DNA of 64,000 bases, from positions 179,931,741-179,995,740 of the forward strand of contig CM041465.1 in assembly GCA_023213395.1 (NCBI GenBank). The letters run 5' to 3'. The notes below the pieces were generated by a model. The model did not search any database. It had not been told where the DNA came from and saw only the letters and a program-made list of their open reading frames with translations. A program made the translations under genes and the position numbers. Position 1 is the first letter of the stretch. The number at the start of each line of letters is the position of its first letter. This DNA comes from Cycas panzhihuaensis. Its lineage: Eukaryota; Plantae; Cycadophyta. Positions 1,309 through 57,420 of this stretch are shown here, piece after piece.

Positions 1309-2510
1309 GAGCGTCTTCGAGTTGAGGAAGAGATTCCTTCTGTAGAAGTGATAAAAATAAAGAGAACATTTTGGCATGTGCTGATGTAGACTGCAAGGTT
1401 GCTCAAAATTAGACAAGTAATGGAACTTCCAAACAGCTGGGGTCAAGACAACATAGAAAGGAGCAATAGCACGCTACTCTGCATATACATCTGGGCTATC
1501 CATGAAATTCACGAAGCACTGGTGGCCACCATCCTTTACCAAATCACCAAGGTGACTTGTCAAGAGCAAGAATCTTTGTCCATATGGCAGCAGACAGAGC
1601 CCAACACATGACAGTTTTTTTTTTCTTTCTTTTTCTTTTCTTTTTTTTTTTTGAAAATAAACATAAGAATATAGGCCAGATTTGAAGGCCTTGAATACAA
1701 AATTTTTGAGCATAACGAAAGTACATATCAACAAAAATATATGTATAACTCAGAATCAGAATCTTTAAAAGTGGAGTCTCTTCTAGCTTCCGGATAGCGA
1801 GAAGCACTCACTCAACCATCAAGTACAGTTCCTACGGCACTTTGTCCACTGACATGCAAAGGAGGTAGCTAAACAGTAGTTGAATCTGCACAAAGAATTT
1901 AGTGGACTTTCACAAGCATGCAAATTTATTGTGGTACCACATGTAGAGAAAATGTCCACTAAGCAGTATCGACAGGCTTCAAACAGTCACAAAACTTCAA
2001 GACAGGCTTGAAAATAGCCTTTCCTCATCATCAAAATAGCCCTTCAAACTTGATATCAGTCCCATAACAAAATATGCATCAGATATAACTTGAAATGATC
2101 TTCAACTTGACAAAGTCATGAAACAGGCACATCAAAAAATTTACAAGGCTTGAAAGCTAAAAAAACATGAATGACATGTACTAGGATTTGCAAGAAATGT
2201 CTCCAAGGGTTGAACCTTGGGCTCTGATACCATGTTAGGATTAGTAATTTGACAAGCATATCAAACCCTAATGGTGAGCAACAAAAAGATGAAGTATGCA
2301 CAGAATAGACACCATGTTGGAGAATTGGCCAAAACTCAATTATGAACAAATAAGAGTACATACTTATAGTACAACCTCACCACTAGAGAAAGAACCCCAT
2401 TGGACTACTTAGAGGTGGCATACATATCAAGGTGGCCCACAACTCTAATACAATACAAATGATAGAGAGAGTTTACATAGGGCTAATGGAATTGAGTATT
2501 ACACCCAACA
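1309..2510 (-). mobile_element. Non-autonomous copia-type/TRIM-like LTR element fragment: 5' LTR 2233-2510, tRNA-iMet PBS 2221-2232, non-coding internal region
   Basis: GCTCTGATACCA (reverse complement TGGTATCAGAGC) lies directly next to a 278-bp TGTTAGG...CCCAACA LTR with terminal inverted repeats. It abuts and truncates the gypsy integrase that starts at 2511. Confidence 0.8.
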
Positions 2511-2514
2511 CTGA

Positions 2515-3395
2515 GGCCCTACAGCCCATTATCTCTCCATGGCCTTTCTCCCAATAGGGACATTGAGGCCATAACCCCTCCTTCTTCATCATAGTACAAG
2601 TTTATCTTGACCACGACATAATATTTTAGTAAATGGGCCAAAGCAGTCCCTTTGTCTTCCACTTTCGGTAAGATGATAGCTACGTTTATCTATCAAAATA
2701 TTATCTATCGATTTAGGGTCCTTGATATCTTGATCACAGACAATAAAACTCCCTTTTGTAATAAGGAAATGGATGAGCTTTTGTGGGAAGTTCAAGATAT
2801 CCCATAAGACTTCCTCTCCTTATTACCTTTAGGTCAACTACTAAATCGAGTCCTTCAATAAGACTCTCATCAACATCCTAAAGAAAACTGTTGCCCAATC
2901 CCAAAAAGATTGGCACCTTCAACTTCCCTCTGCCTTATGGGCATATCGCACTTCCATTCGCATGGCCAAAGGGATGACCCGATTCTCCCTCGTGTATGGA
3001 ACCGAAGCAATCCTCCCTTTGGAAGTTGAAATTCCCTCCTTGCGAGTTTCCCTTTGAGGTCTTATCGTCGAGGAATCCTATCGTCAGGCCCTCCTCCTCA
3101 ACCTTGAAGCCTTAGACGAGAGATGTTTGACAACGTATCAAGTGAATATTGCCTCTAAAGCTAGGGCGTGAATAACGTATAACAAATGTCTTTTCCCTCA
3201 TCCTTTGAATCCCAAGGACCACATCCTTAAGCTAGAATATCTCTACTATCACTTGTCCAAATTCGAGCCCAAATGGGTTGGTCCTTTCATCATTATCGAA
3301 AGCCTCAATAATGACACCTATAGGATCACAACTCTAGAAGGTTTGGAGTTTGAGAAGGCCATCAATGGTAAATTCTTGAAGAAGTTCTATGTGTT
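2515..3395 (+). pseudogene. Decayed gypsy (Tat) integrase
   Basis: Translates to YFSKWAKAVPL, ALWAYRTS..MTRFSLVYGTEAILPLEVEIPSLRV and KFEPKWVGPFII...KAINGKFLKKFY with internal stops. Near-identical to 48002-48900 (-). Confidence 0.93.
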
Positions 3396-4249
3396 ACCTC
3401 CCCTAATCCCGAGAAGGCTAGACACACCCTTCTCTCTTTCTCGCTCCAAAATGAGCCTAAACTACCACTCTAAGTGCATCTTCATTCCCTTAACCATAGG
3501 TAGAATGACAGCTTAGGGTGGCCTCTCACCTTTGTAATTTCATCTCTTCTATTATATCCTTTTGTTTCCCTCACGAGGGAGACCTCTCAACCTAGTTGGG
3601 TGTACAAACTTCCTCCGTTCCTGAGCCTAAAATCACACTCCAACTAGGGCCTCTTGCTTGAGTATCCATACTCCCTCTTTGTCATTGTCTCCTTTGCATA
3701 TCTGTTATGCTCCTTTGATGGACATACATGGTTCTCCCTCTCCTAGCCACATACATGCCTATCACTTATACACATGATAGTCGTGTGTGCCTGCTACGAG
3801 TGTGGTCCTGCATGAAAGGAGATGCGTGTATCATCCACATGATCTAACAACAAAAACCATGTATAACAATCAACTAAAACCATTATAATGCATGATCCCT
3901 CATGCACCTGTACACCTATATCTCCATGCATCTATCTCTCCATGCATATGTATAAATAAATTAAGCAAATAAATAATACAATAATACCACAAAACCATCA
4001 CCATGCCATCATCATAGGTCAAATGGGGTACCAATTGGCCCCCGTCTATATATACAATGAATCATATCATATAAAGCCATATACTACATCATCCTTAGGA
4101 AGTTGGAATCCTTGCAGGGAGGAGTATAATCATGTGTCTACATATGGTATGACTCCCTGGAGGTCTAATGTTTTCTTGCTCAAAACTACTAATGCATCTA
4201 GCTCCTCGATGCCCTACCCTCAAGAGGTGTCATCTCCTTATCTGTGAGA

Positions 4250-5220
4250 CCCCTCGCCAAGAGACCATATGTCTCCTAGGCTCCTCCTACGCCACTACGA
4301 GCTCCTTGCCTCACCTCCTGTGACTCTTGATGGGCTAGCCTCATTGCCTCCATCGTTGCCACCACCCTTGTCTGGGTCATCTCTCAACACTCCCACTGTA
4401 TTGTCGCCATCTCAATGTATCCCTCTATATGGGTCTAATGTATAGTCTGCTAGGGTGAGGAGGTCTAGTGATGTCACCTCCACTGATCTTTGCACATGAA
4501 CCCGATCCTTAGTTCCCCTGAACTGAGTCTACCACTTGTAGCCCATAGGCACTCATGTTGAGATAGGATGAGGCCCTCTAAGTGGTGCCACTACACCAAA
4601 GCAATCAAAGAACTAGCATTATAGTAGAGTACAATATAAGAAACTACCTCTCCCTGCCACTCGGATCATGTCTAACAGTTCCACTATGTTTTCTGCTATT
4701 AAGTCGGCCCAATCCAACCTCTCTTCGGCCTTGCATCTCCTCACCGTGGCTATCCACCCACCTGGAATGTCCCTGTAATTCTATTTCTGGAAGATCTGGA
4801 ACATAATGCCTAGTGTAATGAGCTTCCTCACCTGAGGAATCCTAGACATCACCATAGTCTATACCGACACCCCCTTGTCGGTCCCATCTGCCCTGGCCTG
4901 TGAAATACATAGCCACCTCTGTGTGCACCGCATCTGTACTAGGCAATGTTCCTAATGATGCTAGCACCCATCCTGTTGGTACCCCCAAAATCTTCCTGAT
5001 ATCCCCTAGTGTGATAGTGGCATCTCCTATTTGGGGGAGGTGGAAGATGTGTCACCTACGATCTTAATGGGAGACTATATCCACTAGGAGATGCTAATCT
5101 AATGCATATTGGGATGTCCTGATGATCTTCAGGAGCCTGCAATATTTTAGTACCCCTTTATCTCTTCGTGACATCATCTCTATGAAGCTCATCATCACAC
5201 AACTCCGATGTTCTTGTAGT
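4250..5220 (-). pseudogene. Plant Mobile Domain (PMD, aminotransferase-like) extra ORF of Tat copy A, antisense to pol
   Basis: Minus strand, about 4975-5190, reads SFIEMMSRRDKGVLKYCRLLKIIRTSQYALD*HLLVDIVSH*DRR*HIFHLPQIGDATITLGDIRKILGVP. This matches the PMD signature (L.ALVERW..ETHTFHLP.GE.TITL.DV..ILG.P). Lower boundary is approximate. Confidence 0.8.
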
Positions 5221-6506
5221 TGTCCACCGTAAGAACTGCTTGTAAAACAACCCAAATGTCAATCCAAGTACTATTTATACCATACCTAGCCACCCTTAGG
5301 ATGCCTCTTGCTCCACTCGGATGAGCTAGCCATCTTTTTGGGCCTCTTTTCTTCTTTTTTCCATAGTTTCCTCTCTACCCTGCATTAAACTTTGTGATAC
5401 CATAGAGTTTGATATGATCCCTGCTGAGATTTTCGTGTCCCTTCAGGGGCCACGTGGAAAACTTTGCAACATTGTAATCTTTGTCATGGGGCTGTTGTTT
5501 CCCCACATAAAAAGGTGGGGAGGATGCCTAAAAAACCTCAAAATTTTTCTATAGTGGGCTAAGGCCTAGCCCAATGGGACCAGGGCTACCTAATGCCCTA
5601 GTCCTCCCCCTCTCTAGGACTCATTCAAACTCCATAGGATCCCAAATCACCCTTAAGGGGCCTAAAATAATCTCTACAAATCTCAAAAATCCATTAAATG
5701 TAAATGATAAAATGAAGGGGATAGGGGATGATCCACTCGCTAGATTTAGCCTCGCCACTGCCATCTCGACATCCTGACCACGTGGGATGTCTCTTCACCT
5801 TGATCTAATGGTCAGATCTCCCACTGTGTGCTTCTGAAGTCAGGTAGGGCTCTACTACATAGAAGGAAGGGCTCTAAAATGATCATGGGACCTATGAAAA
5901 TGAATCCTATTTTTACCTTCCTTCCTTTTTATACGCGAGGGTCTCAAGGGGCACTTTCTCCTTTTCCTTTGTCATGATAGCCCTCGAGACTGTTTTCTTG
6001 GCCTCATCACCTTTGTCTTCAGGGTCCATCCCCTATTTTTCCTTTATGGCCTCCATTTCTAATGTTTTTGGTGCATTTATGATGACCTAGTCAGTGTCCT
6101 ATAGAAACTTCCTATCTTATTTTTCATATTACTTTGAAACATACTTATGTTTATACTCCTTTAACCCATTTCACCATTCTGGATCCATTTTTTATGCTTG
6201 TTTGAGCCTTTGAGGCTCCCAAAGGAAGTGCTTTACCTTTCCTAGACCTCACCTTAGTCCTTTTAGAAACCTTTAGGACCCCAAAGGGGCCTTTCTCGCC
6301 ATTGTTTCCCTGCCTCTTCACGAGGTCAGTTTCCTCGCTCCCAGGTAGCCTTTTCCTTGGACTCTCTTGTCTTTTATGACCTATATTTGTAGCCTTTTGA
6401 GTGATCATAGCCTCATCACTACCTATTATCCCTTTCTTCACCTTTTGACCTTATCATCATTATTCCTTTCGTCGTTCGATAGAAACCTTACTCCTTCACC
6501 AGGGTA

Positions 6507-6871
6507 CTCCTTATCTTCACCGACGGAGGAAGTCGTGGAAATCTAGGTCCTTCTACCACTGCATGGATCCTCTGTGACCCCTCTGAATATGACTACATGC
6601 ATTCTGAAGTCTTCCTCCCTGAGGCCACCAATAACAAAGTTGAATACATAACTATTATTGAGGCCCTTACGATGCACTATGTTTCCACCATAGCCCTATC
6701 GTCCTTCTTTGGGACTCTCAAATTGTTGTATCATACCATACCCAGATTTATCAGGTACATTGCCTACGTTTGAGAGCCCTCACTTTGAGTACCATATCTC
6801 TCCTATCTTACTTTACCTCTGTGGACATTCAACACATTCCTCGAGACCTAAATGCCAAGGCAGATAGTTTT
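6507..6871 (+). pseudogene. Archaeal-type RNase HI (aRH) domain of Tat copy A, downstream of integrase
   Basis: Not in the ORF track. Manual translation gives LLIFTDGGSRGNLGPSTTAWILCDP...LPEATNNKVEYITIIEAL, then a frameshift, then VLLWDSQIVVS...YFTSVDIQHIPRDLNAKADSF. All four acidic catalytic positions (D, E, D, D) and the HIPR..N..AD motif are present. Confidence 0.9.
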
Positions 6872-6928
6872 ATTCATTGCATCCTGGGGTATTGTCTCCC
6901 CATTCTTGATGACCCTCCATAGGGGGCT

Positions 6929-9900
6929 TATTAGGTTGCCTAGTCGCCCAGGTTCCAGGGTCATCCCATCCTTCATTCTACGATCCATTCGCACCTCTGA
7001 AAGTTGGCCACTAATGAGGTTAAACTATGGTGATCACTAGGTTTATTTCTTCACTTTATTCTTCGTACCACCCATGGCACGAAGCCCCTATATTCTAATC
7101 TCCATATGTACATATTTCTTATTTATATTATTTGGTTGACCCTACTCAAGACTGTCAGTATCTTTCACCTTGCATAGGTGTAATGGGGACATCCCCCTTA
7201 TCCTCCCTCTCTTTCATTGGATTTTAGAGTGACTCATAGGCAGCCCCTATGTTGCCCCTCTTTCCTCCTGTCTACATGTTCTAACACGACACTCACCACA
7301 TCCTTAGGTGATGACACCACCACACTTTGATGTATGATACTAACCTTTGTGTTGACAGCATTCGCCATCGCATCACACTTCCAAGCAATGAGGCTCTACT
7401 GCCAATGGGGTAGTGTTTCCTAGCTACCAAGAATGGACATGGATGACTCACATTAGGTAAGTGTAGGTATGTGTCTATCCTCACTTTCATTGGCTTCAAG
7501 ATGTTGTTGGATTGACGATAGATACACATTGCATGTTGATTGATTGATTCCCTAATCATTGTACTTGGCTTGCCTGCATATTCATGTGTGCACATAATAT
7601 TTCATCCTATGATGACTCGAGATATATATCCCACATCTTATGGCCCTCTGCCATGTCTCCATAATGTCCCCAAGTACTCTTGGCTCCCACAGCCCATCCT
7701 TTATCACTTCTTAGCATGACTTGATCCCTAACAACTCATTTAGTCCTGGTCATCATCTTTGTTCGCCATTTGTCTCTCTTTAGGGCCTTGTTGCCACCCT
7801 TTCTCATTTATCATGGTCTCTCTAGGTCGTATAACCCCTCTTGGCATATCAACATTGTATTATTGCCCTTTTGGGATCTAGGGCCCCCTTTTTGGAGAGC
7901 CTTTTGAGCTCCCATTTTTTAATTTTTTGCCTAGTTTTGAGCACACTGCTATAAATTCTGTGGTACTGCTACAAATTTCACAATACCATGAAGTTTACCA
8001 TGGTGCGACTATTCATTTTTTTTTTTTGTCTGGCCATGAATAATTTCGTATTAAATGCAAAATTAACACATGACATTGGGTTGTTTCCCGCCCAGGGCAA
8101 GTCCTAATCACCTGTTAGGCTAGGGTTGGGATTAAAAATTCAAAATTTACCCCATTCCTCCTTCTTCTTCCTCCTCATCTTTAAGAAAATTTTCTAAAAT
8201 AAGGGTTCTCATCTGTTGTACCTATCCACTATTCCTGCCATCATCTCCTTTAGGGTAAAACCCTAAGTTGCAGGTCTACAGTAGTAAGCTTTAGGACAGA
8301 TCTCATCCACAAGCATCCCATTAAGGCACAAGCACCAGATTTGTTTGCAGGTCATGCTCTTCCCTTACACCATTATAGAGGTTTTTCACTAGTCCTCTAA
8401 GAGAAGCCTCTCTCCCAACCATTACACAAGGTAAATCTGCCTTAGATCTTCTCTTACCAGGTATTTATAGGCCTGCACACTATTCTTTTCCTTAAGCATA
8501 AGGGTTTTCTCGTTTACTTTTGTAGTTACAATGTGAAACTACCCCATATTTGTCCATTTCAAAAGGCAAACCCTTCCCTTTCTCAGGTATATTCCCTTAC
8601 ACCTTGAGGTTTCATTTGGTTCTACTTAAGGAGGTGGATAGAAGGGAGTCCATCAAAGAGAGAAAGGAGTTTCAGGTAGGGTTTCGTACCCTTTTGCCAT
8701 CTCCTCAAGGGTAACACCCTACTCTTCACTCCTTTTCTTCTCCCAATACCTACCTTGTCCACCCGAAAATCCTTGGGGTAGGGAGCCTTATTGGTTGCAA
8801 CGTTAGTAGCACCTTGCTATGCCTGCAACCAGTCATCATAGCTTCAGAAAATCTAATTTTTAGTAGTAGCTTATTGGTATTTACACAGTTTCAGTCTTGT
8901 CTTTGTAAAATCTTACAAAAGTTGCTCATTGCAACTTTTGTAACTTTTCCATTTCCTTGCAACTTTCTCACATATGAAGTTTGTTGCTCTTTTACTATTG
9001 AAAAAACTTAGCTTTTGTCTCATTTTCTTACTTGAGTGCTTGGGGTACACGAAGACATCCCATTAGAGGGTTAGCCATTTTGAGGCTACCCTTCTCTCTT
9101 CATTTCAACCCCCTTTCCTGCAACCATTGAAACATGTTATATGCATAATAAGGAAAATTAACATTGTACATGGTGCACATTGGAAGGATTTGCATAAGGT
9201 TACTCTCCCTTTGTTCCTTTTCCCTTTTGATAAGCACATATATATATGATTACTCCATGCATATTTATTAACCCTTGGGAAAGGGTAAACTATTTGTTGT
9301 GTGGGTCTCACCTCTTTAGGGCAACCAAAGGTTTCCACGAAAGGTGCGTATACCTCCCTTATTGTTATTACATTATTCAAAACTTTATCATAAGCAATCC
9401 TTCTTTTTTTCCTTTGGTTTTTTTTGCACTTAGACATTGGGGAAGGTAAGGATACCCCGCTAGTGCTCCTCTTGCAATATCAATCATGACAAGGAGAATT
9501 AAGTGGATGAGTGTGGATCGCAAAGAAAGTCACAAGGCGTCTACACTGGCCGTCTGATTTCTGGGTACATTTCTTGCTATCTTATTGCCTATTCCTTTCC
9601 CCCCTTTATTCCCAAAAGAAGAAAAAGAAGAACAAAAAGAAGGATAGTTAGTGTTTCACTATTCATTGTTTGACTTGTATGATCATATAGGGGAAGGATA
9701 ATTGCTTTGCACAAGTAGGTGACAATCCCCACTAGTTGCATCTTTACACCCCTCTCTTGGCTCAAACTCTCGCATTTGCTAGAGTTTAAGTGCAAAAGGT
9801 TATGAGTCTCTCTACTCTCAACCTATCCTCCTTCCTACCTATCATTAGGTTGACTTGAATTAGTCTTCACATCCTATTCCTATGCTTCTTGCCTGCTTGT

Positions 9901-10600
9901 TTCCTTTTATGCTCATAAAAAGATAAAGAGAGAGAGGCTAGGATTTAGGAAGAGAAAGAGAGTTATTATCTTGTTTACTTTCTTTTTATTCAAATACGAA
10001 CTAGAGATAACAATAACTTGTATTACCATGACACTTCATTATATAACAAAAACAAAGAAATAAAAACACATTGCCTTATCCCCTACATCTAGCTAACCAT
10101 TTCAGGTGTAGGCACCTTAGGGGTACTTCCCCTTTATGGTCTTCCTCTCTCCTTTTGATAAGGCCCCTCTTTGCCTTACCTCTATTTATAAGTTGGCATT
10201 TTTCAGCCCAACTTCCCCTTCTTATCCACACTACCAGTTACTCATTACTTGCATGTGGGTGCTTCCTCTTTCGGTTAGGACCTACCTCTCCCTTTCCCTC
10301 TCCTTAGGAAGGGTGTATTTATCTTGATCCTCCTTCCTTGGCCATCCAAGATAGGAGGGTCCCTTAAGGTTATTCAACAAACCGAGAGGGCCTCCCTTTT
10401 ATCCATCTCTAATTGAGAAGTTGCTCACCTCGAGGGGGAGTTTGTGCACCATCTACGGGTCCTCGAACCTGTGTTCTAACACATGAATGCCCCTTGTGGG
10501 GAATCATTTCCCTCACTTCTATAGATCCTTTAGCCCTGTAACTATTGATTATATCGACTTGATCTCTTTGTATCTAGTGACCCCCAGAGGTATGCTTCCA
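6929..10600 (+). repeat. 3' LTR of Tat copy A (about 3.2-3.7 kb; start uncertain between 6929 and 7410)
   Basis: Follows the PPT-like TAGGGGGC. Homologous to the PBS-adjacent LTR of copy B and ends ...GTATGCTTCCA, like copy B's ...GTGCATCCA. Confidence 0.65.
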
Positions 10601-10607
10601 GGCTACA

Positions 10608-11790
10608 GAAGGGCTAGCAGAATTGAAACTATTATCAAATAACAAACAATTATTTTTTTATTAATAAAAAAATAATAATAATTAACTTATAAAGATTTAG
10701 TATCCACCCATTTTAAAATAGACCCTCGATCATGCGAGGTTCTCTATATAATCACCCACTAACGATTAGGTGCCTCCCATAGAATTAAGACATAATACAA
10801 TCTATTTAAATTTCCTTGAAACTTTATAAAAATAAAATATAAATCAATCAAAAGATTTGTCACATGGCTCCTGTGCGAAAATAAAGAACTAAACGATAAT
10901 CAAACTTGTTTGAATCTATTTGAACATGATTAGATCGAGTAAATATGTAATGGGATCACCTCTAAAATAGTGTGGAAATAAAGTAGGATTTATCCAAGTT
11001 GAAAATAGGGGGCCCATAGCCTTAATACTCCACCTACAGATATATGACCTCCATGATTAATGGTGGACAAATAGAGGCTAAGATTCCTTAAAGATTGATC
11101 GAAAGGGATTATTATATAGTTATGTAATTGTGCAAGCTCCCTATAGGTTGACATGAGGTTGGTAGGGCACCATGTAAACTTGAATAGAAGCCACACAAAC
11201 TTACTTCGATGGGGACAAAGTCTAAACAATACAAAACAACACCAATGGGATATCATTTTTGCTTGAAACTATTTCAACGAGGATATAGAGGACTGCTACC
11301 AACTAGCCAAACTACAAATGAGAGCTGCTACGTGAAGAAAACACCCTAGAGTAGTATTGGATTTGCTAGAAAATACTAAAATTGATTACAAAATATAAAA
11401 ATAGAGATGAGTAGGGTGTCATTATTAACAAACAAGCCACCGTTTCTCAATTAAGCTCACACTCTAATACCATGTCAAATTCATCAATTGGATTGAATAA
11501 AAATATGCATTTAAATATAACTTAAACAAACAAAGATTAATCACAAAATAAGAAAGCAAATTATTGCAGAAATGTACTATGGGTAAATTGGTTATACTGT
11601 GCATCTAAATTTTGGCAGAGCTTCTGTATATGAAAACTTTTAATGTATAAATGAATAGGGTCGTGCTTAATTTATAAGCATACAACGCCCAAATACAAAT
11701 GATATAATTAACTAGCTTAGCGACAAAGGTGGTAGACTAGACCAAACTATAGATTACATTTAAATTTACAAAGTGGGGGTCACACCCTGT
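10608..11790 (-). mobile_element. Degenerate copia-type fragment with PBS and LTR start
   Basis: Decayed tRNA-iMet PBS ACTCTAATACCA (11461-11472) followed by TG (11473). Outer limits are approximate. Confidence 0.4.
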
Positions 11791-38700: not shown

Positions 38701-38839
38701 AACTTAAAGAAACATAAAGTTTACATTATATAATCTAACATTCCCCTTTAATGTAAACTTTTATACTGGAGAGAAAAGAAGAGCTTCATCACGGTGATCC
38801 CCCTTTGATAGAGACTTCTTTTATTTGTAACAGATCTCT

Positions 38840-44866: not shown

Positions 44867-45449
44867 CTCCCAAAGATAACCTACCCTTAAACAAGGATTC
44901 TTTCAAAGGGAATGAAGAGGAAACGTCAAGGATTTCTTCCTCTATCACGCCAGTAAGGCCAAGCACCTATTGATGAAGCGAAGGATCAATCCTCCTTTCT
45001 CGAAAGAATAGACATCGAGACATCACGACCATCGCCTTTCAAAGTGCCTCCGCACTGGGTTTCCATCATACCCTAGTTTGATGGGTATGGATGCAATAAG
45101 CTTTGGGCTCCACTGTTTCAAAGAATGTATCCTGCACCGCTTCTAGGGTTTTCCCTCTTCTATCGCAAGATTAGCATCGCCAAACTAGTGGGATCTACCT
45201 TGTTCCGATGCCGCGATCTTTGCCATGGGGCCTCGATCGCCGCGGACCCGGCCAAACTCGTGGTACCGCTGGTTTGACGCCATGAAGGTAGAATCAGAGA
45301 AAAAAGAGATGGGGCTCTAAGGGGCCTAAATCTCGATCAGGAGGAGCTGAGAAATAGCCTAAAAGATGAGGAATGTGTAGACTTGGCTCTGATTAATGTG
45401 GTTGGCATTTTACAGCCTATGATCGCAGTAGAAAACTGCGAGAATATAA

Positions 45450-46450
45450 GGATGGCTATGTTTAGTTTTATTGAGATGATGACCAGGGAGGATCGGGAGA
45501 TCCTACGGAGGTGTAGCTTGCTGAAGGTCACTAGGATGCCCTAGTACATGTCAGACGAGCAGCTATTGATCAACATTATGTCGCATTGGGACAGGAGGGG
45601 GTATGTCTTCCACCTACCCCAGGTAGGAGATGTATCAGTGACGCCAAGAGATATCGGAGAATCTTGGGGAGTACCAAAGAACGAGGAGGCCGTGGCACTA
45701 GGAGCGCTGCCCAGCAATGAGGCAACACACCGAAGGCATCAATATTTTCACAAGTTTAGATAGATGGAAGAGACAGGGATTCCTCTCAGACCATGGTCAT
45801 GTCGTGATTCCTCGAGTGAGGAAGTTGATCACACTATGCAACTGCTCTAGATCTCCTAAATAGAATTATAGGGACATACTGAGAGGATGGATGGGCACGG
45901 TACGCCAATGCGAGGTGGGAGAGCGGATGGACTAGGCGATCTAATAGCGGTGAACCTCGTCACGCCCAGACGCTTAGTGGTAGTGCAAGAAAGGACTCTC
46001 ATATAGTACGCTATTGCAGGTGTTGGTTCTTCGACCACTTTGGAGCAAAGGGCACCTGGGGGGACTACGCCCTATCGCAAAGTGGGCCCCGATGGTCCAT
46101 AGATGGCAGACAAGGCTTAGAGGGACCGAGGACCAGGCTCATGTCCATTGCTTGGTGGAGACCACATCACTAGATCTCCTCACTCTGATAGATTGCAGGA
46201 GGATCCGTACAGGTTGGTTAGGTGGGATAGTGACGATGAGGCTGGAGGAGAAGGGGTGCCCCCGGGAGATGATGAGGGCAGTGATGGAGGTGATGGGACT
46301 GGCCCATCATGAGCTGCAGGAGAGGCAGGTCCATCGGGTAGAGAGGCAGGCCCATCATGGACTGCGGAGGAGGGTAGAGGCCTAATGACACAGGCCCAGA
46401 GGCTACAGATCATCAGGAGATCTAGAGAGGTGGTAACTACACCAGCCACA
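45450..46450 (+). pseudogene. Plant Mobile Domain (PMD) extra ORF of Tat copy B, antisense to pol
   Basis: FSFIEMMTREDREILRRCSLLKVTRMP*YMSDEQLLINIMSHWDRRGYVFHLPQVGDVSVTPRDIGESWGVP: PMD signature, collinear with the copy A ORF. Confidence 0.8.
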
Positions 46451-48001
46451 AAGAGGAGGGATGCCCCAACAGTTGAGGCAGTAGCAGAGGAGGTATCCAA
46501 GGAGGAGGAGGTACCGCAATGGTGGAGTATCGGAGAGGGAGGCAACAGACGAGTTGAGGAGTGGCGGCTACACCAAGTGAGACATGACCATTTCCTACCG
46601 CCGTTTGATTGCAAGATATATACGTATTATGTGGTTTTAATTTGATATCTATATAGACATGGACTAATATGTAGCATGTTGGATTGCAATTATGGTAGAT
46701 ATTTAGAGGTTGGTGGAGGCGAGTCCGAGAGATATTCCCTCGTGCCTATGTGGAGGGACGACCTCCCATCCAAAGCAGCGATGAGCCCAGATCGGCAACA
46801 CACGACAAAGATTCGCCCCATTGATAAGGGCGAGAGACATATGGATAGTAGAGTTCCAAGAGCATGAGGCACATGTGGGGCATCTGCAGGCAGAGATGGA
46901 TGCCATCTGATCTGAGAGGGATGCCCTATAGACACAGGTGCAGGTACTAGAGGCTCAGGGATGATCCAGAGGGGATATGGGGGCCATATCCGGTGATAGT
47001 GCCGGAGGAGCAACTCCGGGATGGAGGAGAGGTTCTGACTCATGGAGATGGAGCAGATCATATCTAGGCACGATACAATCGATCGGGTGGAGGACATGGC
47101 ATCGAGGTTAGCATAGAGCAGGACGTAGACTCACACAGCAGTGACAACCTCGAGGAGGCCACGGGACGAGGGGAGCGAGGCAGGGAGCTCACAGAGACTC
47201 AGGAGGAGTCTCGGAGGGATGTGGTTCCCAGGAGAGAGATCACATCGACCAGAGACGATGCCCTAGGGCAAGCAGAGGGTAGTATATGTTTTTTGTTTTA
47301 GACATGGGAAAGCACGGGCCTCTAGGGGGTCACCATATATAGTCACATGATTGTACCCCCCTCCCTGTAAGGACACCTGCTTCCCATAGACAATGCACCA
47401 TACCATATGTATGATATGACACATGATTTTGATGTATATAGACAGGGTGATTGATACCTCATTTTAACATATGATGATGTGTATCATAATGTGTGTTTGA
47501 TGATATGTATGTTTTATTTACATGTTTATATGTGTGTGATGGTGCACAGATGTACGAGGGTATGTATGGTTATATTTTGAGTTGATTATTATATGAGATT
47601 TATGTTATGACGTTTGTTTAGGTTACGCATATTTCCTTTCATGCAGGGCCATATACCTAACAGGAGCACACACAACCACTATGAGTAGAGATGATCAACA
47701 TATGCAGGGTTAGGAAATAGGGCAACATGCATGTCCATATGGGAGCATGGCGGGATATGCAAAGGAAATACCAAGCGAGAGGGGAGTGACGATACTCCAA
47801 AGCATTGTCCTAGATGGGGGCTGCCCAAATAGGAGGACAAGGTCCTAAGGAAAATGGGAACAAGGGTTCCACGGGAGGAACTAGAAAGAAATGAAAGGGG
47901 CCATCCTAAGTCGTCATTCTACCCATGGCTAGGGGAAATGGAAACAAACTTAAGATGGTAGTTTAGGCTCATTTCAGAGCGTGAATAAGGTGATGGTGAG
48001 G

Positions 48002-49280
48002 TTACAAGTAGAATTTCTTAAGGAATTTCCCATTAACAACTTTTTCAAACTCAAGGCCCTCCAAGGTGGTGATCCTATAGGCACTGTTACTGAGGCTCTC
48101 GATGACGACAAAATGGCCAACCCATTTAGGCCTGAATTTTGCCAAGCGGTCATGAAGATACTCCAATTTAAGGACATGATCCCCGGGAAACAAAGGATGA
48201 GAATGAAGATGTTTATCATAGGTCCTTTATGAGTGGGCTTTGGATGCTAAGTTAGCTTGGTAGGCAATTAAGTGTCTCTCATCCAAAGCTTCGAGGTCTA
48301 GGAGGTGAGCTTGATGGATCAACTCCTCATCAATGAGACCTCGAAGAGAGACTTGCAAGGAGGGGATCTCTACTTCCAACAGGAGTACCACCTCGATACC
48401 ATAAACCAGGGAGAATAGGGTCATTCCCATGACAGAATAGACAAAGGTGCAGTACGCCCACAAGGTAGAAGGGAGCCGAAGGTGCCAGTCTCTTTGAGAC
48501 TCAGTGACAATTTTCTTTAAAATATTGATGAGAGTCTTGTTGAATGACTCCACTTGACTATTTGCCTGGGGGTAGTAAAGGGAGAAAGTTTTGTGAGAGA
48601 TTTTAAATTTCTCACAAAGCTCATCCATTTCCTTGTTACAAAAGGGGGTTCTGCTGTCGAATTAGGACATCGTGAATCCTAAAACGACAAATGATATACT
48701 AGTAAACGAAGGTAGTTATCACCTTGCTAGGGGTAGTAACTAGAGGGATGGCCTCTGTCCATTTAGTAAAGTATTCCATAGTAGTCAAGATAAACTTATG
48801 ATGCGACGAGGAAGGTGGGGAGATAGCCCCGATGAGGTCTAGACCCTACTGAGTGAAAGGCCACAGAGATATGATGGGGTGAAGGGCCTCGAAAGGTACA
48901 TGGGAGATGTTAGCGTGTTCCTGACATCGCCGACACCTCAGGGCAAAAGCATGGGCGTCCTTGAAGAGGGACGACCAAAAGTAGCCCATACGAAGGATCC
49001 TCTAGGCCATAGATTGGCCCCCAAAGTGACCCTCGTAAACGCCATGGTGGCATTTACAGAGTATTTGGTCTGCTTCGTCGATAGTGATGCAACGGAGGAG
49101 GATCTCATTGAAAGACCTCTTGTACAATACTTCATCCATGAGGAAGTATTGTCTAGCAGAAGTCTGGATATGATATCTAACCTTACTACTAGCTTCGTGG
49201 CTATGATTGCCGTGTCGTACGCACAATGTCGCCATACCACTCCTTGTCAATGAGTAGATGGAGAGGGACGTCTGAATAAT
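48002..49280 (-). pseudogene. Gypsy (Tat) integrase
   Basis: LYKRSFNEILLRCI..CHHGVYEGHFGG zinc-binding region; YYPQANSQVESFNKTL; WHLRLPSTLWAY; LAKFRPKWVG..VNGKFLKKFY. Confidence 0.95.
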
Positions 49281-49299
49281 CAAGATGGACTCATCGAAG

Positions 49300-52000
49300 G
49301 GAATTATTAATAGGGATATCGAGCGAGTTAGGGATAGGCGTGAGTTGCTTAGCCACTACCATCTCTTCTTCAATTTCCGTTAACGATATGAAGATTAAAT
49401 TCCTAAAGTAAGATGGCCCAACTACCACCCTACCGCCAGTCCGAACGAGTGCGAGATATCACAGGGATCGACTAGCCGATCACCTTGGTGGTGTTACCAA
49501 GCAAGTAATGTCTAAACTTCTTGGTCGCGTGGTCCAAGGAGAGACATTCCTTCTGGCCAGAGAGTAGTTAAGTTTGGAAGCCACAAGGATGTAGTTGATA
49601 AAGTAGATAGCTCTCTCGACTCACGAGACGCCTTGAGCCAACATAGCGCCAGGGACTCGTTAGTCGAGGTATAAAGAATGAAGGGCCTATCGAAACAAGG
49701 GGTACCAACGTAGAGTGGAAGCAAGGGCTTCCTTAAGTCCTTCGAAGGCTTGTTAGGCCTTATCAGACCAAACAAATAGAGCTTCCTTATTCAATAGGTT
49801 TGTCAGGGGTTTGACACTTATGGTAAAGTCTACCGAAGCGCTCAAGAAACCGAGCCTACCTAGGAACAAGTTGATCTGTCGTTGGGTTCTAGGAAGCGGC
49901 ATATCAAGGATGCCTTGACCTTATCAGGGTCAATCTAAATTCCTTATTTTGATAGAAGAAATCCAAGGAGTTTGCTAAAAGTAACAGCAAACACACACTT
50001 GAGTGGGTTTAAGCTTATATGGTACTTACAGCATCGAGTGAAGATAGCCCACAAGTCAAAGGGATGATGGGCCCTGACATATGAGAGACCCATCATGTCA
50101 TCCATAAAGACCTCCAATGTGTCATCGATAAGGTCATGGAAGGTAAAGTGCATCACTCTTTGGTAAGTAGCGCATGCATTCTTGAGACCAAAGGGCATTG
50201 CCTTGTATCCAAAGGTACCCCACGGGATGGTGAAGGCCATCTTGTGGCGGTCTTCATGAGATATTTAGATCTAATTGTAGCCAGAGAAGCTGTCAATCAA
50301 GGACATAACTTTGAACCTAGCAGTTCAATCAATGATTTAATCAATGAAAGGGAGTGGAAAGTTGTCCTTAGGACATGCGTTGTTAATATCATGGAAATGA
50401 ATGCATATCTGGATGGTCCTATTCTTTTTAGTAATGGGAACGATGTTGGATACCCATTTAGGGTAGTCGATAAAAGTAATAACTCTAGCATCCAAAAGCT
50501 TCTTGACCTCCATCTTGACGCCACGAGAGTTTAGGTGGAGAGGACGCCGCTTTTGATGCACGGATGTGCACCGTGAATGGTAGTGAGATTATAGGTAATA
50601 ATGGAGGGTCAATTCCTTTCATGTCAGAATAATCCCATGCAAAGACATCTCGAAACTCCTGGAACAAAAGGGAATATTCCCTTACCTCATCAGGGGAGCA
50701 TTATGCCCCACCTTAATGACCTTATCGAGGAGCTAAGACTATGTCTGGGTCACCCCATGCATATGCCATTTCCCTCCTCGAAATGGAGAGGGCAAGGTCA
50801 GGAAGAGATGGAATAGGGATGGGATTGGGTCACGAGTGTGGACCGATCGCTGTAATCTTCGGTGGCCAAGCCTATGGTGACCATAAGGAAAGTTGGGCAC
50901 AGAGCTTGCTAAGTGCTCAAGTACGGCTTCATCGTCTTCGAAGTAATCCACCCCATGAATGACCTTACTCGAATAGATGAAGTCTTTGGAAGAAGTAGGG
51001 ACAATGAGACCGTGATGGTCGCCAAGTCGTCCAACCTCCTCAGAAGACTCTAAGAGTGAGTCAAGAAGGGCTCCTCGAAGGGGCAAAGGAACTTCTCGAA
51101 ACCATCACCGCAGAGGGTGACAGAGAGGAAGGATCAATGAGCCGTAGATCAATGCATGCAATGACATGAGACACAATGGGGTGACTAGTCTCACCAACGA
51201 GAGGGGTTCCAGGTTGGGACCTAGAACAAGAAGGGTGCATCCTACTAGTGCGAGGAAAGAAACGGGTGAGGAAAGCCCTCATCCTTATCATAGCACTCAT
51301 CATCGCTAAACGAGGTGAGGTACCCGTAGTTCCCAACAATCGATAGAGCGAAATGCGTGAGATTAGAGGAAGAAGATGCAAGATCTTCTTCAATGTGGGA
51401 TGGATCAGATATGCCGATAGAACAAGCTGAGGCATGAGTAGAAGGGCCTTGGCTTCCTTGGTTAATCGATAAGTTTACTTAACAGTGGGCATTCGCAGAA
51501 ATAACCCTCATTCGTCCATCGTGGACAAATTTAAGTTACCCCCCTGGGTCGAACACACGACTCCCATCCGATCGAGCCATGCTCGACCCAAGAGAAGATT
51601 ATAGTCGATGTTAACGCCAAGGACTATAATGTCGCCGAGGACGCCTTACCCTCAAGAGTGAGTAGGATTGAAATGGATCTTAATGGAGTCTTTTCACTAC
51701 CGTCGTAGCCTTGGCATCACCATGGAACAGTTCCAAGGCGTAAATGCTAAGCTCTTGTATAACATGCAAGGGCATGGCATTCATAGAAGAACTATTGTCG
51801 ATAACATCCTTCAGAGAAACAGTCAAGTGTATCAATAGTGATGGTGAATGGGAAGTTCCATTGGCGTTCCCTTTCACATGCAGGGGGAAGGTCTTTAGGG
51901 TCAAAGGGAATGGCGGGCTCATGACTTTGGGTAACACCCAAAACGTGAATGGGCACGCCATTCGATCCTAAAGCTTCTAAAAAGAGAGTCATTGTTCGGG
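49300..52000 (-). pseudogene. pol: Gypsy (Tat) protease, reverse transcriptase and RNase H (frameshifted)
   Basis: Protease VIDNSSSMNAMP and DYNLLLGRAWLD. RT FAWDYSDMKGIDP, WVSNIVPITKKN..NNACPKDNFPLPFID, YKAMPFGLKNACATYQR and VFMDDM. RH RPFILY. Confidence 0.93.
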
Positions 52001-52515
52001 ATAACTCCTCAAAACATCCATCAAGGACATTCCCGTAGTGACAGTATGGAGCTCGTCAACGATAGAGAAAGGCTTCCCATTCACAGTAGGCTGGGTAAGC
52101 GCCCTTGAAACTCGTAATGACCAGACGATATGAATGGCCTTAGGAAATAGCGAAACTTCTAGAGGGAGTTTTCCAAGAGGATCGAGTGTGAGACAAGAAG
52201 AAGTGCCACCGCCTCTTTAGCAGCTTCTGACCAAGTAAGGGCATATAAGGGAGTAGCCTCAAGCATTTGAATTACCTTCTTTCCCTTATTCCGAGACTGC
52301 AAAGGTGAAAGAGTATGTCGGTGAGGGGAATGCAAAGAAGAAGATGAATCCCGAGCACCCTTCCCTTTATCACGGGAAGGATGGGAATTCAGGGATCTTC
52401 CCCAGTTCTAGTTGTTTTTGGGCTGAGTATTACGATCACGTTCCCCATGTTTGGGGAAAGGATCCTTGTGGACCGCTTGGTTTAGATTGGGCCTTGAGGC
52501 CTGCTTAGGGATAAA

Positions 52516-53490
52516 TCACGCCGAGGGGCATCCCAGGATGCCGGGCCCTACAAATGAGTCATCATAGAAATACTCCCCGTGAATGGAACACCACTTCTTC
52601 TCAAGTGAGGGACCAGGTTTTCTCGCTTGAGAGGACTGGGCGTTACCATTCCTAGGGAGGGAAGCTTGAGTAGCTTGTTGTATTTGTTTGTTAGAAGTGG
52701 GTGATGAAGGAGCTTGCAGTTTAAGTTCCTTCATCGTACGTTCAAATGAACATATAGCGGATGTAAGTAGATCTAGGGTCTTTTTAGTCAGATGAGAAGA
52801 GGACCTAGTGGATTGTTGTGGTTTGGTCTCTTTAGTTGGAGGTGGTGCCTCACATCGTTGCGAGAGATTAAGAGGCTTCTTGAGTCTAGCTCGGATCTCA
52901 ATAGCCTCAAGCGCTAAACACTTTGCGATAACGGAGTCGCATGTAGTCAACCCCATCTTAAGGACTTCAACATGGACTTCAGGATGAAGTGCATTAACGA
53001 AGAGATCCCTCTTCAATTCCTCGGGTAAAGTAACCTTAGTGGAATGAAGAAGGCCATGAAATCACCACACGAAGTCATGATTCATCTCATTGTGACCTTG
53101 TTTGAGCGAAAGAAGGGATTTTATTCCATTTTTGAATGGGTGAGCAACATCAAAATAATTGATGAACTCATCCACAAGTCACTGGAACGAGAAAATGGAA
53201 TGAGTCCGGTGTGATAAAACCACTTAAGGGCATCACCTTGTAAGGATTATAGGAATAGTTTCGTTAGAATGTGGTCATAGGCCTAGTAATCAATATACGT
53301 CATAGAGAAACTACGGACGTGCTCTACTGGGTCATGTGATGAAGTTCCATCGAACTTAGGAACTTTGGAAGGATGAGGCGGTAGATTGGTTCTCAACACC
53401 TCAACAGATAATGGTGTCGATCTATAGTCCATGAAGGGACGTGCCCTTGCCTGAACCATAGGATCGACAAATGATGTAGGAGGTAACACG
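52516..53490 (-). pseudogene. gag: Gypsy gag (retrotrans_gag) remnant
   Basis: PSKVPKFDGTSSHDPVEHVRSF, SLQGDALKWF, SLKQGHNE, KRDLFVNALHPEV and the knuckle-like KKWCSIHG. Confidence 0.85.
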
Positions 53491-54741
53491 CAAGGAACAG
53501 ATGGAGGTGGTTAACCCATCCCTCCTTGGGGAGGTGCCCCTTGCTGGAAAGGGACTTGAGAATAAACGCCTGAAAGGAAGCCGGGTTCCTTGTAAAGGCG
53601 CAGCTGAAGGAGCTACTGGATGGTATAAAAGAAGGGTGTGGAACCAGGTTTTATCCATATGGGCCACCCATGGGTGGTAGAACCCCATATGGATGTAGCG
53701 GGTCCACCCCATAAGCTGGAATATGATTCCCTTTACCCTGCCCTCAAGGTTGAGAAGTATAACCTAGGGGTATGTAAAGGGAAGGGCCATTAGGTTGGTT
53801 TTGAGGATACGTGGGAACGGATCCCACATAACTAGTGGTGGTAGCATTAGTAAGACCTCTAGGCCTACTAGGAAACGCATGCACCATGTTAGGAGATGGC
53901 ACATTAGCTTGACTTGGAAAAGGTATGCTAACCCTAAGCTAGGGGAGAGACACACCACGAGAGGGTCTCGAAGAGCTATGACCATGATAAGGAATAGAAG
54001 TCGCAACATGCGTCCCCAAAGTAGGTGTACGAAAGGAGCGGGATGAATATGCAGGCACAAAAGGGTTACTCGTTGTGGGAGGTGCAGATGAGGATGAAGA
54101 AGGTGGGACAGGAGCAGATGAAGAAGACAATCCACCATACAAAACATCTTCAAACTATCTGGGACGTGATTGAAGACGAGTCGTTTGAAAGCACTCACTA
54201 AGGGCTTCAACCACGTCGATAGGAGGGGGTATCTACATGATCGTAGGAAGTAGATGAGACTTCATACGAAGTAGACCCCTTGGGATGCTCCTCATAAGAA
54301 TCACCAACTGGATGGTGAATCTCGAGAGGAGATAGGCCCTCTACTGCGTGAGTAGAAGGATGGGTATTAAGTGGGTGACGTTGGTCAGCCGGGTAGTAAA
54401 TAGGATTGTCACCCTCTTGGGTGGATCCCAGAATAGATACAGGGAACTAATGAGTTCCCAAGGTAAATGCATGATAGGCCCAATTGGAAGGGTATCCTTC
54501 CATTGTCGGATCAGAATCTGACGATGAAAGAAGATGATACACAGGATCTTCTAACAATGGAGGCAAACCACATAGGCGACATGAGAAGCATCGCATACAA
54601 AGCTTGCTAACATGTTAGAAGAAGGAAAAAGATGCAAAGTGTATGTTGGGGGCTGCCCAACAAAAGAGATGAAGTGGAGGAAACCACTAGAAGGTAATAG
54701 TACCAACAGGAAGGGATAGAAACTAGCCCCCTTACTGGCAA

Positions 54742-54760
54742 GTCCCCAGTATGGTCACCA
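54742..54760 (-). promoter_or_regulatory. Primer-binding site, tRNA-Arg type (Tat/Ogre-like)
   Basis: Minus strand TGGTGACCATACTGGGGAC resembles the Ogre/Tat PBS TGGCGACTCCACTGGGGAC. It lies 1 nt after the LTR-terminal CA and upstream of gag. Confidence 0.7.
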
Positions 54761-54761
54761 G

Positions 54762-57420
54762 TGGATGCACGTTTACGGGATAGTCACCTAGCTCGATAGG
54801 AATGATGATGGTCGATGGTGGTATTGAGGGTGCGGGCAAAAACCTACAAGAGAAGTAAGTGACACGCAGGGCACCTCGTGTGCCAGAGCGCGAGTTTGGG
54901 ACTTGAGGATGATACCCAATTACCTTAGGGTGGTCCTCTATCCCAAAGAGAAAGAGGGAAAAAAGAAAAGGAGTCCGGATAAGCTCGAGAGGAAGATCCT
55001 CCCACCCTTGGATGGCCGGAAGGGGAAGAGATGAGTCCTCAAGGGTTTCCCTATGATGGAGGGAAACAAGCGGGGACAAAGTAGGCCATAGCCTATGATG
55101 AGACCAGGCTCCTCTTGGTTATTTGACCAAGCAAATAAGGCTAAGAGGGAGAGAGAGAAATGAGAATGGGACAACTAAACCAAAGTTTCCCCTAATGATT
55201 CGAAAAGGAAATAGGAAAGGAAACGGGAATAGGTGTCACGTATGTAAGCAAACAATGCTAGGTGGGAATAAACCGAGTGGGAAAACTAGGCTTTACAAGC
55301 AAGGGAAAAGGAAAGGGTAAGTTTCTTATAGGTCCTTTTCCTATGAGTGTTAAATGTGCGATATGCAAATACACAAACGTAAATAAAAGATATTGTTTCC
55401 CCTTTCATTTTTATGTGCAACCTACTTAACTAACACATAGATCCTAAATAAAAGTAAGAAAGGAAAAGCAAGGGTTAAAGGGAGGATGCACGACTCGAAA
55501 GATGTAGCGGTGATGGAGAACCTCACCCACAGAACGCACATCCCCGCGTCAATCCAAAGAGGCATGACCAAGTCTTGACGTGTATGACAGGGGCTTCCTT
55601 ACCTTCCCCTTTATGAAAAAGAAGCGAAAAGGAAAGAAGTAAAAGCAAAGAAACAAAGCGTTAGACCTTACCTAGATCTAAACACTTTATACCTTTACGA
55701 AAGCACCACGACAACTTGCACATGCATGGATTTATCCCTTCCAAGAAGGGGCTACAAAAGATAAACTATGTATATGCAAGTATATATGTGATATTTGTGT
55801 TAAAGTGTTAGCAAAAATAGTTGCTACAACAAGCTCTAAAACCCCCTCTCAAGCAAGGATAAATATTAAGCAAAAATAGGGTAAGGGAAGCCTCAGGATG
55901 GCTAACCCTCCGCTGGGTTCTCCACACAACTCTCAAGCACATCAAGGTAATGATAAAGGCAACTAAGAATAGCCAAAAGATGCAAAGAAAAGAGTAATGA
56001 AGCATTGGGGAAATATGCAAGACGCGAAATTGCTATGGGCAGTAATCTGATGCACAAACCCTTGCCAATGGTATAAAGGGGTACCCAACAACACAATGGA
56101 TACTACGGGGGTCTAACAAGAGGCGAGCAGGCGAATCGGTGCAACAAGGGGTTGCGACGTGGATGATCCAAAGGTGCAATCCTAGGGCTCAATCATTCCT
56201 AATAATCCCAAGAAGAGCATGGAGCAAGAGAAGAGAAGGTGGGAAGGGGTTACCCTTAGAGAGAAGGACTGAAAAGGGGGGCTGCCCTGCCTTACTCTCT
56301 TCATCCAACCTTATGACTCTTCTCTCACTGCTCCCTTGAAGAAAATTAGTGGAGAGAAAGGTGGAGCTGGGAGATAACAGGCTAAATATAATGGAAAGAC
56401 ACTTTGCAATGTGAGACTGAAGGAAGCAGTAAATAAGACAAGAAATAGGTCCAAAATGGGGATAACTTACTATAAATCTGGAAAAGAAGGGTTTGAGAGA
56501 CTGCTGGGAAGATATATGGCGATCCGGGCTGCTAACAAAGGAGGAAGAGGACCCCTACAAGCGTTCTTTGGAGAAATTCCAACGGCAAATTGAAAAGGGC
56601 ACTTCTTGGGCGAGTTGGAGAAGAAACAACACCAAAATCGCTTGATAAAACTCGGAGAGAGGCTTCCCACCATGGAAGCAAGGAGTTACAAGCAAATCAT
56701 GGCCTAGGGTAGTGTGAAATGCAGGCCTACAAGTATACCCGCAGAGAAAGAGCAGAGAGAAAGAGTTGCGAGGCATTGTTGCGTTAGAGAGCAAAAAATG
56801 ACCCAAGAGAGGGCCAAAATTATGAGGGTTTTGATACTTATACCCATCCTAGCCCTAAGTGAGCGAATAGGGCCGAGGTGGATGTGAGACCATGTGGCAA
56901 TTCCATAGGAAACATCAATGTGGCAATTCATGAAACATCCATATGGTAGTTTTGGGTTCCGAGAGCTTTGGGAGGTGATGTGGCAGGCCTGGGAGGGGCT
57001 GGCCCTCCTGTCTAGGTGGCTGAGATAGTTCAGAATACACGTGGACAGAGGCAAGCAAACACTAATGGGCAAAGGTCCCGTAAATAAGGTGCTAGGAACT
57101 CAAGGCCGGTGTATGAATGGGTCATATCTACCGTAAACTCAAGATGGTGTGGAGATAGCACGCAGAGTTGTAAAGTGCTATGGGGATGCCTACGTTGTGG
57201 AAAGGTAGGTCCTGTTGGGTTGTCATAGGCTCACGATACAACAAAAAGGCATGAACAGCAACAAATGCAAAGTAATCACACAAATGAAGCAAGCAGTCAT
57301 GCAAAGAGGCAACACTTTTGTCAACCTTTCCGACAAAATAATATAAATTAAAAGGGAGAAGCATACTTGAGCTTACCTAAGTCGACCTGCCCGTATCCAT
57401 TCCCGGTAGCCAGGAAACAC
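54762..57420 (-). repeat. 5' LTR of Tat copy B (outer end truncated)
   Basis: Shares homologous blocks with 7412-10600. At about 57420 the sequence switches to the repeat shared with 62994 onward. Confidence 0.75.

What the first reader, a model, noticed from the sequence alone, without database searches (positions are those of the whole stretch)
2511..10600. Tat retrotransposon family with order INT - antisense PMD gene - stand-alone archaeal RNase H - LTR
Seen: in copy A an aRH domain (6507-6871, not in the ORF track) lies about 3.1 kb downstream of integrase, just before the PPT. A PMD ORF on the opposite strand sits between them. Copy B has the same antisense PMD and no aRH between RH and INT (only a short linker at about 49260-49330). 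Known: Ogre/Retand put aRH between RH and INT; aRH downstream of INT is, as I recall, the TatIII arrangement; PMD is the domain of the Arabidopsis silencing and genome-stability proteins MAIN/MAIL1 and occurs in some gypsy and MULE elements. Inference: the aRH must be expressed separately from pol (own promoter or splicing over the antisense gene). PMD and aRH would diverge from the 5250-6500 spacer, which could be an internal bidirectional promoter driving two accessory genes. I do not recall this combination being characterised.
Basis: partly seen in the sequence, partly recalled or inferred. Interest (0 to 1): 0.78.

Follow-up and report, generated by a model that had tools for sequence, protein, structure and literature searches.

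The report
Retrotransposon with stand-alone RNase H gene
This is a decayed copy of a known seed-plant retrotransposon lineage (TatIII) whose second RNase H sits as a small separate gene, back to back with an antisense accessory gene, so the enzyme is likely made apart from the reverse transcriptase it would serve.

Summary
The layout is real: integrase (2511-3400), antisense PMD-like gene (~4100-5250), 1.25-kb spacer, archaeal-type RNase H (6501-6922), PPT, ~3.7-kb 3' LTR to ~10600. That LTR is colinear with copy B's 5' LTR. It is TatIII (Tat structure #3, 'post-integrase', likely the cycad/Ginkgo cluster I). Post-integrase aRH, a 'solo' aRH ORF and an antisense PMD gene in this lineage are all in print, so the element type is not new. 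What the data add: papers disagree on whether this aRH is part of Pol. Here it is a separate gene. It lies 3.1 kb past the integrase end, behind an opposite-strand gene. All 20 close database relatives have a Met at a subfamily-fixed distance before the first catalytic Asp, and contigs of four DNA runs read a start codon at that codon. B's native RH has Ser for its first catalytic Asp. TATA+initiator-like motifs face outward from the spacer (strong for PMD, weak for aRH), so paired internal promoters are plausible but untested; an env-like spliced mRNA is the rival. Copy B is cut at ~45200, so only copy A shows the full order.

The parts
2511..3400 (+). Copy A integrase, C-terminal part, broken; cut on the left by a Copia-type insertion
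   Evidence: Pfam rve E 0.0011, SH3_Tf2-1 E 0.011; 69-71% DNA identity to B integrase
4100..5250 (-). Copy A antisense accessory gene with PMD-like N-terminal domain (core 4890-5192); stops and frameshifts; ends approximate
   Evidence: PF10536 E 0.00083-0.0063, below cutoff; tblastx to B; alignment A4
5250..6500 (.). Spacer between the 5' ends of the PMD-like gene and aRH; candidate divergent promoter region
   Evidence: sequence; motif scan
5901..5933 (-). Predicted core promoter of the antisense gene: TATA box at 5933-5927 and initiator-like TCA 32 nt downstream
   Evidence: only strict match in the spacer; 0.85% of 2000 shuffles have one on the minus strand; 4 contigs of run X16 differ at one base and still read as a TATA box
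6382..6415 (+). Weak predicted core promoter of aRH: TATA-like heptamer, initiator-like TCA 33 nt on, then an 86-nt ATG-free pyrimidine-rich leader
   Evidence: loose pattern only; 8.5% of shuffles; last upstream ATG at 6376
6501..6922 (+). Stand-alone archaeal-type RNase H gene (~140 codons); this copy has no start codon and a frameshift near 6716; stop overlaps the PPT
   Evidence: relatives' start codon:
6919..6927 (+). Polypurine tract
   Evidence: sequence; position between aRH stop and LTR
6929..10600 (+). 3' LTR of copy A, about 3.7 kb (start inferred from the PPT; end 10600, possibly 10607)
   Evidence: 7411-10600 colinear with B 57422-54762, score 503 vs 304-327 in 5 shuffles; laid-contig cover drops beyond ~10790
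54762..57418 (-). Copy B 5' LTR (outer part cut off by a nested element)
54743..54760 (-). Copy B primer-binding site, Ogre/TatIII tRNA-Arg type (match to the type is recalled)
   Evidence: sequence
48000..54500 (-). Copy B gag-PR-RT-RH-INT, broken; native RH has Ser at the first catalytic Asp; integrase ends in a stop at 48002-48000; no aRH
   Evidence: RVT_1 E 5e-15, Integrase_H2C2 E 7e-7, RT_RNaseH E 0.031
45400..47400 (+). Copy B antisense PMD-like gene, with ~840 bp not present in A; element cut at ~45203

Best explanation
Copy A is the decayed 3' half of a TatIII (post-integrase) Ty3/gypsy retrotransposon whose archaeal-type RNase H is a separate ~140-codon gene with its own start codon, likely transcribed from an internal promoter back to back with the predicted promoter of the antisense PMD-like gene, and likely supplied in trans to a reverse transcriptase whose own RNase H appears dead. 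Shown: the gene order in A, the LTR link to B's gag-pol, the catalytic residues, the subfamily-fixed Met in relatives, the stop ending B's integrase, and Ser for the first catalytic Asp in B's native RH. Inferred: a sense promoter near 6382-6415, an antisense promoter near 5933-5901, and packaging of the solo enzyme into the particle by binding RT/tether, Gag or RNA, where it would degrade the RNA template and cut the PPT primer. The PMD protein is likely a nuclear accessory factor (speculative, by analogy with MAIN/MAIL1 and Grande gene 23). Odds: TatIII 0.93; separate gene 0.88; internal sense promoter rather than spliced RNA about 0.55.
For: Domain hits. LTR colinearity ties aRH to the same kind of element as B's gag-pol. 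One search had no length limit; its 6 best hits are short plant-type proteins of 69-142 aa, and 11 of its longer hits scanned show no RT or integrase domain. 20 close relatives form one clade with three subclades (quick tree, SH-aLRT 93; 87/92/100), with Met 7, 14 or 16 residues before the first Asp: 5, 8 and 7 proteins. 18 of 20 were counted by script, 2 read by eye; in P0002 the Met is internal. 7 of the 20 are Ginkgo gene models, incl. the 142-aa Gb_11691. At codon 6501-6503 laid contigs read Met in all four DNA runs (depth 393/393, 486.7/486.7, 168.7/187.8, 47.4/53.4; 31, 39, 26, 11 contigs), in a strong Kozak-type context (context recalled). Promoter motifs. No 8-9-mer direct repeats flank the aRH or PMD blocks. 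Literature: PMC10508981 and PMC13468544 (solo aRH, degenerate native RH).
Against: Only one copy shows the full order; no listed contig spans PMD to aRH, and two metagenome scans found no related locus. Two single contigs join the INT side to aRH or LTR skipping PMD (3961-6562; 3465-7010, side 22), so PMD-less derivatives may exist. Gene callers start ORFs at Met, and could not see proteins over 249 aa. The sense promoter is weak (8.5% by chance), its pattern was chosen after viewing the sequence, and the scan missed the TATA-like site at ~10181 in the LTR. The pyrimidine tract and AG before the start codon also fit a splice acceptor. The native-RH change is read in one decayed copy. PMD is below the Pfam cutoff. 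PMC4408406 describes the Pinaceae aRH as the Pol C-terminus.
Confidence: 0.7

Rival explanations
1. Same separate aRH protein, but made from an env-like spliced subgenomic RNA that starts in the 5' LTR and joins an acceptor just before the aRH start codon; only the antisense gene has an internal promoter.
For: aRH sits where env sits, just before the PPT. 6301-6500 is 70% pyrimidine and has an AG at 6481-6482, 19 nt before the start codon. The sense TATA is weak. Ogre elements splice (PMC4408406, discussion).
Against: The leader is C-rich rather than U-rich as plant introns usually are (recalled). A TATA-like site with initiator at canonical spacing is present.
Confidence: 0.3
2. aRH is joined to Pol as a C-terminal domain by splicing out the whole antisense gene, giving RT-RH-INT-aRH.
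For: PMC4408406 places lineage III aRH at the very C-terminus of Pol; PMC13468544 calls the point controversial; fusion would solve packaging.
Against: B's integrase ends in a stop. Three subfamilies keep their own fixed Met. The laid contigs read a start codon at that place.
Confidence: 0.08
3. The order in copy A is an accident: PMD or aRH came in as separate nested insertions or by recombination between unrelated elements.
For: Only one complete example; the window is a nest of insertions; two single contigs skip PMD.
Against: INT-PMD is shared with the 71%-identical copy B. The LTR after aRH matches B's 5' LTR. No flanking direct repeats. INT.aRH order and antisense PMD are published for this lineage.
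Confidence: 0.07

Closest known systems
TatIII (REXdb, PMC6317226) = lineage III (PMC4408406) = Tat structure #3 'post-integrase', clusters H (Pinaceae) and I (Cycas, Ginkgo) (PMC10508981, PMC13468544)
   Same: aRH after INT and none between PR-RT or RH-INT; aRH as a solo ORF; antisense PMD gene in the 3' part; Arg-type PBS; degenerate native RH; nearest named relatives are Ginkgo proteins.
   Different: No difference shown. The texts read do not say that PMD lies between INT and aRH, head to head with it; the 2015 text puts aRH at the Pol C-terminus. Figures and REXdb per-element files could not be seen.
Ogre and Retand (Tat structure #1)
   Same: Long LTRs, long pol-to-3'LTR region, antisense accessory ORF (PMD in 57% of Ogre, PMC6317226).
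   Different: aRH is fused between RH and INT there; here it is absent from Pol.
Maize Grande gene 23
   Same: Antisense accessory gene in the 3' internal region, transcribed from its own promoter (seen only as a reference title and passage in PMC11963269).
   Different: Retand lineage, no PMD reported in the passages read, no second sense gene after it.
Tat structure #4 'pre-capsid' (mosses, a clubmoss)
   Same: aRH as an independent ORF with degenerate native RH (PMC10508981).
   Different: Located before gag, not before the PPT.
Archaeal-type RNase HI (Halobacterium RNase H1, PDB 4e19; Rv2228c N-domain, 3hst)
   Same: Free-standing single-domain enzyme with DED(R)D site; the 142-aa relative P0005 matches at E 1.9e-18 and 3.4e-17.
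   Different: Cellular enzymes, not retroelement genes.

Membership tests
TatIII / Tat structure #3 | aRH downstream of integrase, inside the element | tested here: met
TatIII / Tat structure #3 | No aRH between PR and RT or between RH and INT | tested here: met
   profile scan of copy B at shuffle level; A's pol 5' part is not in the window
TatIII / Tat structure #3 | aRH of archaeal type with DEDD plus Arg | tested here: met
TatIII / Tat structure #3 | Degenerate native RH | tested here: met
   first catalytic Asp is Ser in B, codon differs at all three positions; one decayed copy only
TatIII / Tat structure #3 | Antisense 3' eORF with PMD | tested here: met
   sub-cutoff PF10536 match in A, homologous gene in B
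TatIII / Tat structure #3 | tRNA-Arg PBS (64% of TatIII) | tested here: inconclusive
   B 54760-54743 resembles the Ogre-type Arg PBS as recalled; no tRNA set compared
TatIII / Tat structure #3 | RT/INT phylogeny within Tat clusters H/I | not testable with these tools
   no REXdb/DANTE or reference RT set on hand; the aRH tree groups it with Ginkgo solo aRH proteins
TatIII / Tat structure #3 | 5-bp TSD, 12.7-17.3 kb length | not testable with these tools
   both copies truncated; no genome held
Ogre / Retand | aRH fused between RH and INT | tested here: not met
TatI / TatII (structure #2) | aRH between PR and RT | tested here: not met

The most novel reading that the evidence does not exclude
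TatIII elements replicate with a two-part reverse transcription machine: Pol carries a dead RNase H tether, and the active RNase H is a free small protein made from an internal divergent promoter pair shared with the antisense PMD gene, so both accessory proteins are switched on independently of the LTR and the enzyme is recruited into the particle in trans.
Probability: 0.4. Interest if true: 0.62.

Novelty: new member of a known kind. Interest (0 to 1): 0.36.

Why it matters
LTR retrotransposons reverse-transcribe inside a cytoplasmic particle and normally carry RNase H fused to RT. PMC10508981 asks how a separate-ORF aRH could function, and PMC13468544 calls its status (Pol domain or separate ORF) controversial. 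The conserved own start codon and the intervening opposite-strand gene favour 'separate gene' for the cycad/Ginkgo-type group and give coordinates for a direct promoter test. It would be a natural case of RNase H supplied in trans. The element type itself is already classified.

Tried and rejected
No genome held, so no copy census. Word-indexed search with the decayed aRH found 0 of 2 candidates; the PMD search found 1 relative. Metagenome scans with an aRH relative (156 pattern matches) and the PMD alignment (197) confirmed none; alignment A1 gave no usable pattern. The viral scan gave 2 loci at 31-33% identity, not used. No RNA holder listed. One run guessed to be RNA (X18) and three of unknown type were laid: X18 contigs lie mostly on the PMD part, and none of the 14 listed joints links INT to aRH; contigs cannot show starts or splicing, so this is not counted either way. 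No ESM Atlas result was obtained for PMD. Alignment A3 and the row win2_16060 in the tree used a wrong frame and are ignored; the tree is the quick one, the careful search did not finish. No complex prediction: no intact RT-RH partner of this group was on hand. dN/dS not run: no intact copies. Earlier scan findings: 4 look-ups, one unrelated note.
Full report
Observation. Six-frame translation and Pfam by reference confirm, in copy A, a broken integrase at 2511-3400, a minus-strand PMD-like region and an RNase H at 6501-6922. The RNase H is split by one frameshift near 6716: N-half RNase_H E 1e-5, C-half RVT_3 E 0.0013. NCBIfam hits include the archaeal models RnaseHI_Halo and RNAseHI_Thmprot, all below cutoff. 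The C-half aligns to the 142-aa relative P0005 (E 1e-8), which matches Halobacterium RNase H1 in the PDB at E 1.9e-18. D, E, D, R and D of the active site are all present. The stop overlaps the purine tract at 6919-6927. PMD support is weaker: PF10536 E 0.0063 and 0.00083, below cutoff, plus homology between A, B and one database protein.

Boundaries. A is cut at 2511 by a minus-strand Copia-type LTR (2233-2510) with a Met-type PBS (type recalled). A 7411-10600 is colinear with B 57422-54762, which ends at B's PBS: score 503 against 304-327 for 5 shuffles. So the sequence after aRH is a 3' LTR of about 3.7 kb of the same kind as B's 5' LTR. Contigs of four DNA runs cover all 30 bins; summed depth is at least 508 in the three large runs from 2442 to 10787 and 15-89 beyond (depth is not a copy number). 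No 8-9-mer direct repeats flank the aRH or PMD blocks.

Copy B. It has gag, PR, RT (E 5e-15), RH, INT and the antisense gene. A profile of 20 plant aRH proteins finds no aRH in it. B matches A only down to ~45203, then runs into an aldo/keto-reductase sequence, so it has no spacer, aRH or 3' LTR. Its integrase ends in a stop. Its native RH has Ser where the first catalytic Asp belongs, a three-base difference unlikely to be simple decay. A and B are 71% identical in integrase.

Is aRH a separate gene? A length-unrestricted HMMER search (156 hits at E up to 0.001, 150 listed) put short proteins first; 11 of the longer hits scanned held no RT or integrase. A profile search limited to 28-249 aa added more (31 hits). 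The 20 plant-type proteins form one clade with the window's aRH, in three subclades (quick tree). Each subclade has Met at a fixed distance before the first Asp: 7 (5 proteins, the window's group), 14 (8) or 16 (7) (18 counted by script, 2 by eye). Seven are Ginkgo gene models. In copy A the codon seven before the Asp (6501-6503) is Arg, but laid contigs read Met there in all four runs: all depth in two, 168.7 of 187.8 and 47.4 of 53.4 in the others. Gene callers favour Met starts, but the fixed position and the contig evidence do not depend on that alone.

How it is expressed. The spacer holds one strict TATA+initiator match, on the minus strand (5933, spacing 32; 0.85% of 2000 shuffles), pointing at the PMD-like gene; four contigs of run X16 differ by one base and still read as a TATA box. 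A looser pattern also finds one plus-strand site (6382, spacing 33; 8.5% of shuffles; both strands together 0.45%), followed by an 86-nt ATG-free leader. The loose pattern was chosen after seeing the sequence, and neither pattern caught the TATA-like site near 10181 in the LTR. The same leader could be a splice acceptor. I favour two divergent internal promoters (about 0.55) over an env-like spliced RNA (0.3) and Pol fusion (0.08). Supply of the enzyme in trans follows from the dead native RH, and is inferred. The available runs say nothing on expression.

Against my reading. Only A shows the full order. No listed contig spans PMD to aRH. Of 15 joints listed (648 more not shown) one single contig joins 3465 to 7010, and one in the gap table joins 3961 to 6562, both skipping PMD. 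Two metagenome scans found no related locus.

Literature. PMC4408406 (parts 1-4 of 6 read; supplements listed, one read, searched): gymnosperm lineage III has aRH 'at the very C-terminus' of Pol and an antisense PMD eORF at the 3' end. PMC6317226 (passages; two supplements): TatIII has aRH after INT, 39 elements, 18% with a 3' reverse eORF, 64% Arg PBS; its per-element table and FASTA were too large to read and may show the order. PMC10508981 (whole text; supplement parts 1 and 3 and a search): structure #3 has aRH in a separate ORF in conifers, Cycas and Ginkgo. Its text says 'upstream of pol', its Table S3 gives INT.aRH. Native RH is degraded in all aRH structures, and it asks how a separate aRH could function; PMD is not mentioned in the main text. 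PMC13468544 (passages): 'post-integrase', 'solo aRH', status called controversial, 0 occurrences of PMD. PMC5418596, PMC9289625, PMC11963269, PMC5348765, PMC13477047, PMC8775202: passages only. Eight searches of an open-access library found no text stating the head-to-head PMD/aRH order or an expression mechanism; figures and subscription papers were not seen.

Verdict. A genuine, decayed member of a known lineage, probably from a cycad/Ginkgo-type host (inferred from relatives only). The useful increment is evidence that the post-integrase aRH is an independent gene, and a concrete promoter hypothesis. Interest 0.36.

Noticed in passing
window 16060-16230 (+): A second, more decayed aRH-like fragment (30.8 bits, E 4e-8 with the plant aRH profile; no Pfam hit), after a gag-like piece at 12614-12738 and a tandem array; no PMD or integrase seen before it. 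Possibly a non-autonomous Tat derivative.
   Followed up: partly
window 7010-7035 and 13987-14953: A 26-base motif near the start of A's LTR recurs five times in the tandem array (6 matches, 0 in 100 shuffles); looser copies lie at 16201 (inside the second aRH-like fragment), 21593 and 21854, and a similar stretch follows the integrase stop in A and B (~3450, ~47970). Candidate cis-element.
   Followed up: partly
window 44400-45200 (+): Aldo/keto-reductase sequence (Pfam E 3.4e-18), apparently intronless and broken, abuts the cut end of copy B in the same orientation as its PMD-like gene; a retrocopy or a captured gene piece.
   Followed up: partly
window 46322-47161 (+): B's antisense gene has ~840 bp absent from A, with acidic low-complexity stretches and a heptad-like segment that may be a coiled coil (by eye), a feature PMC4408406 gives only for later lineages.
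   Followed up: no
window ~5240 (-) and ~45405 (+): Both copies have a branch-point-like motif and a T-rich AG just before the PMD-like region, suggesting an intron in the antisense gene's 5' part (by eye).
   Followed up: no
window 2221-2510 (-): Copia-type LTR and PBS inserted into A's integrase; its internal part gave no Pfam hit at 1700-2232.
   Followed up: partly
window 38086-43000 (-): Decayed Ty1/copia element (RVT_2 E 6.7e-28, gag_pre-integrase E 6.5e-8); 38086-38302 repeats at 34474-34691.
   Followed up: no
window 57419-64000: Nested element with ~1-kb direct repeats (57419-58393, 62994-63997, 79%) cuts B's 5' LTR; not identified.
   Followed up: no
window 16535-21179: Tandem duplication of a ~2.2-kb unit at ~80% identity.
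   Followed up: no
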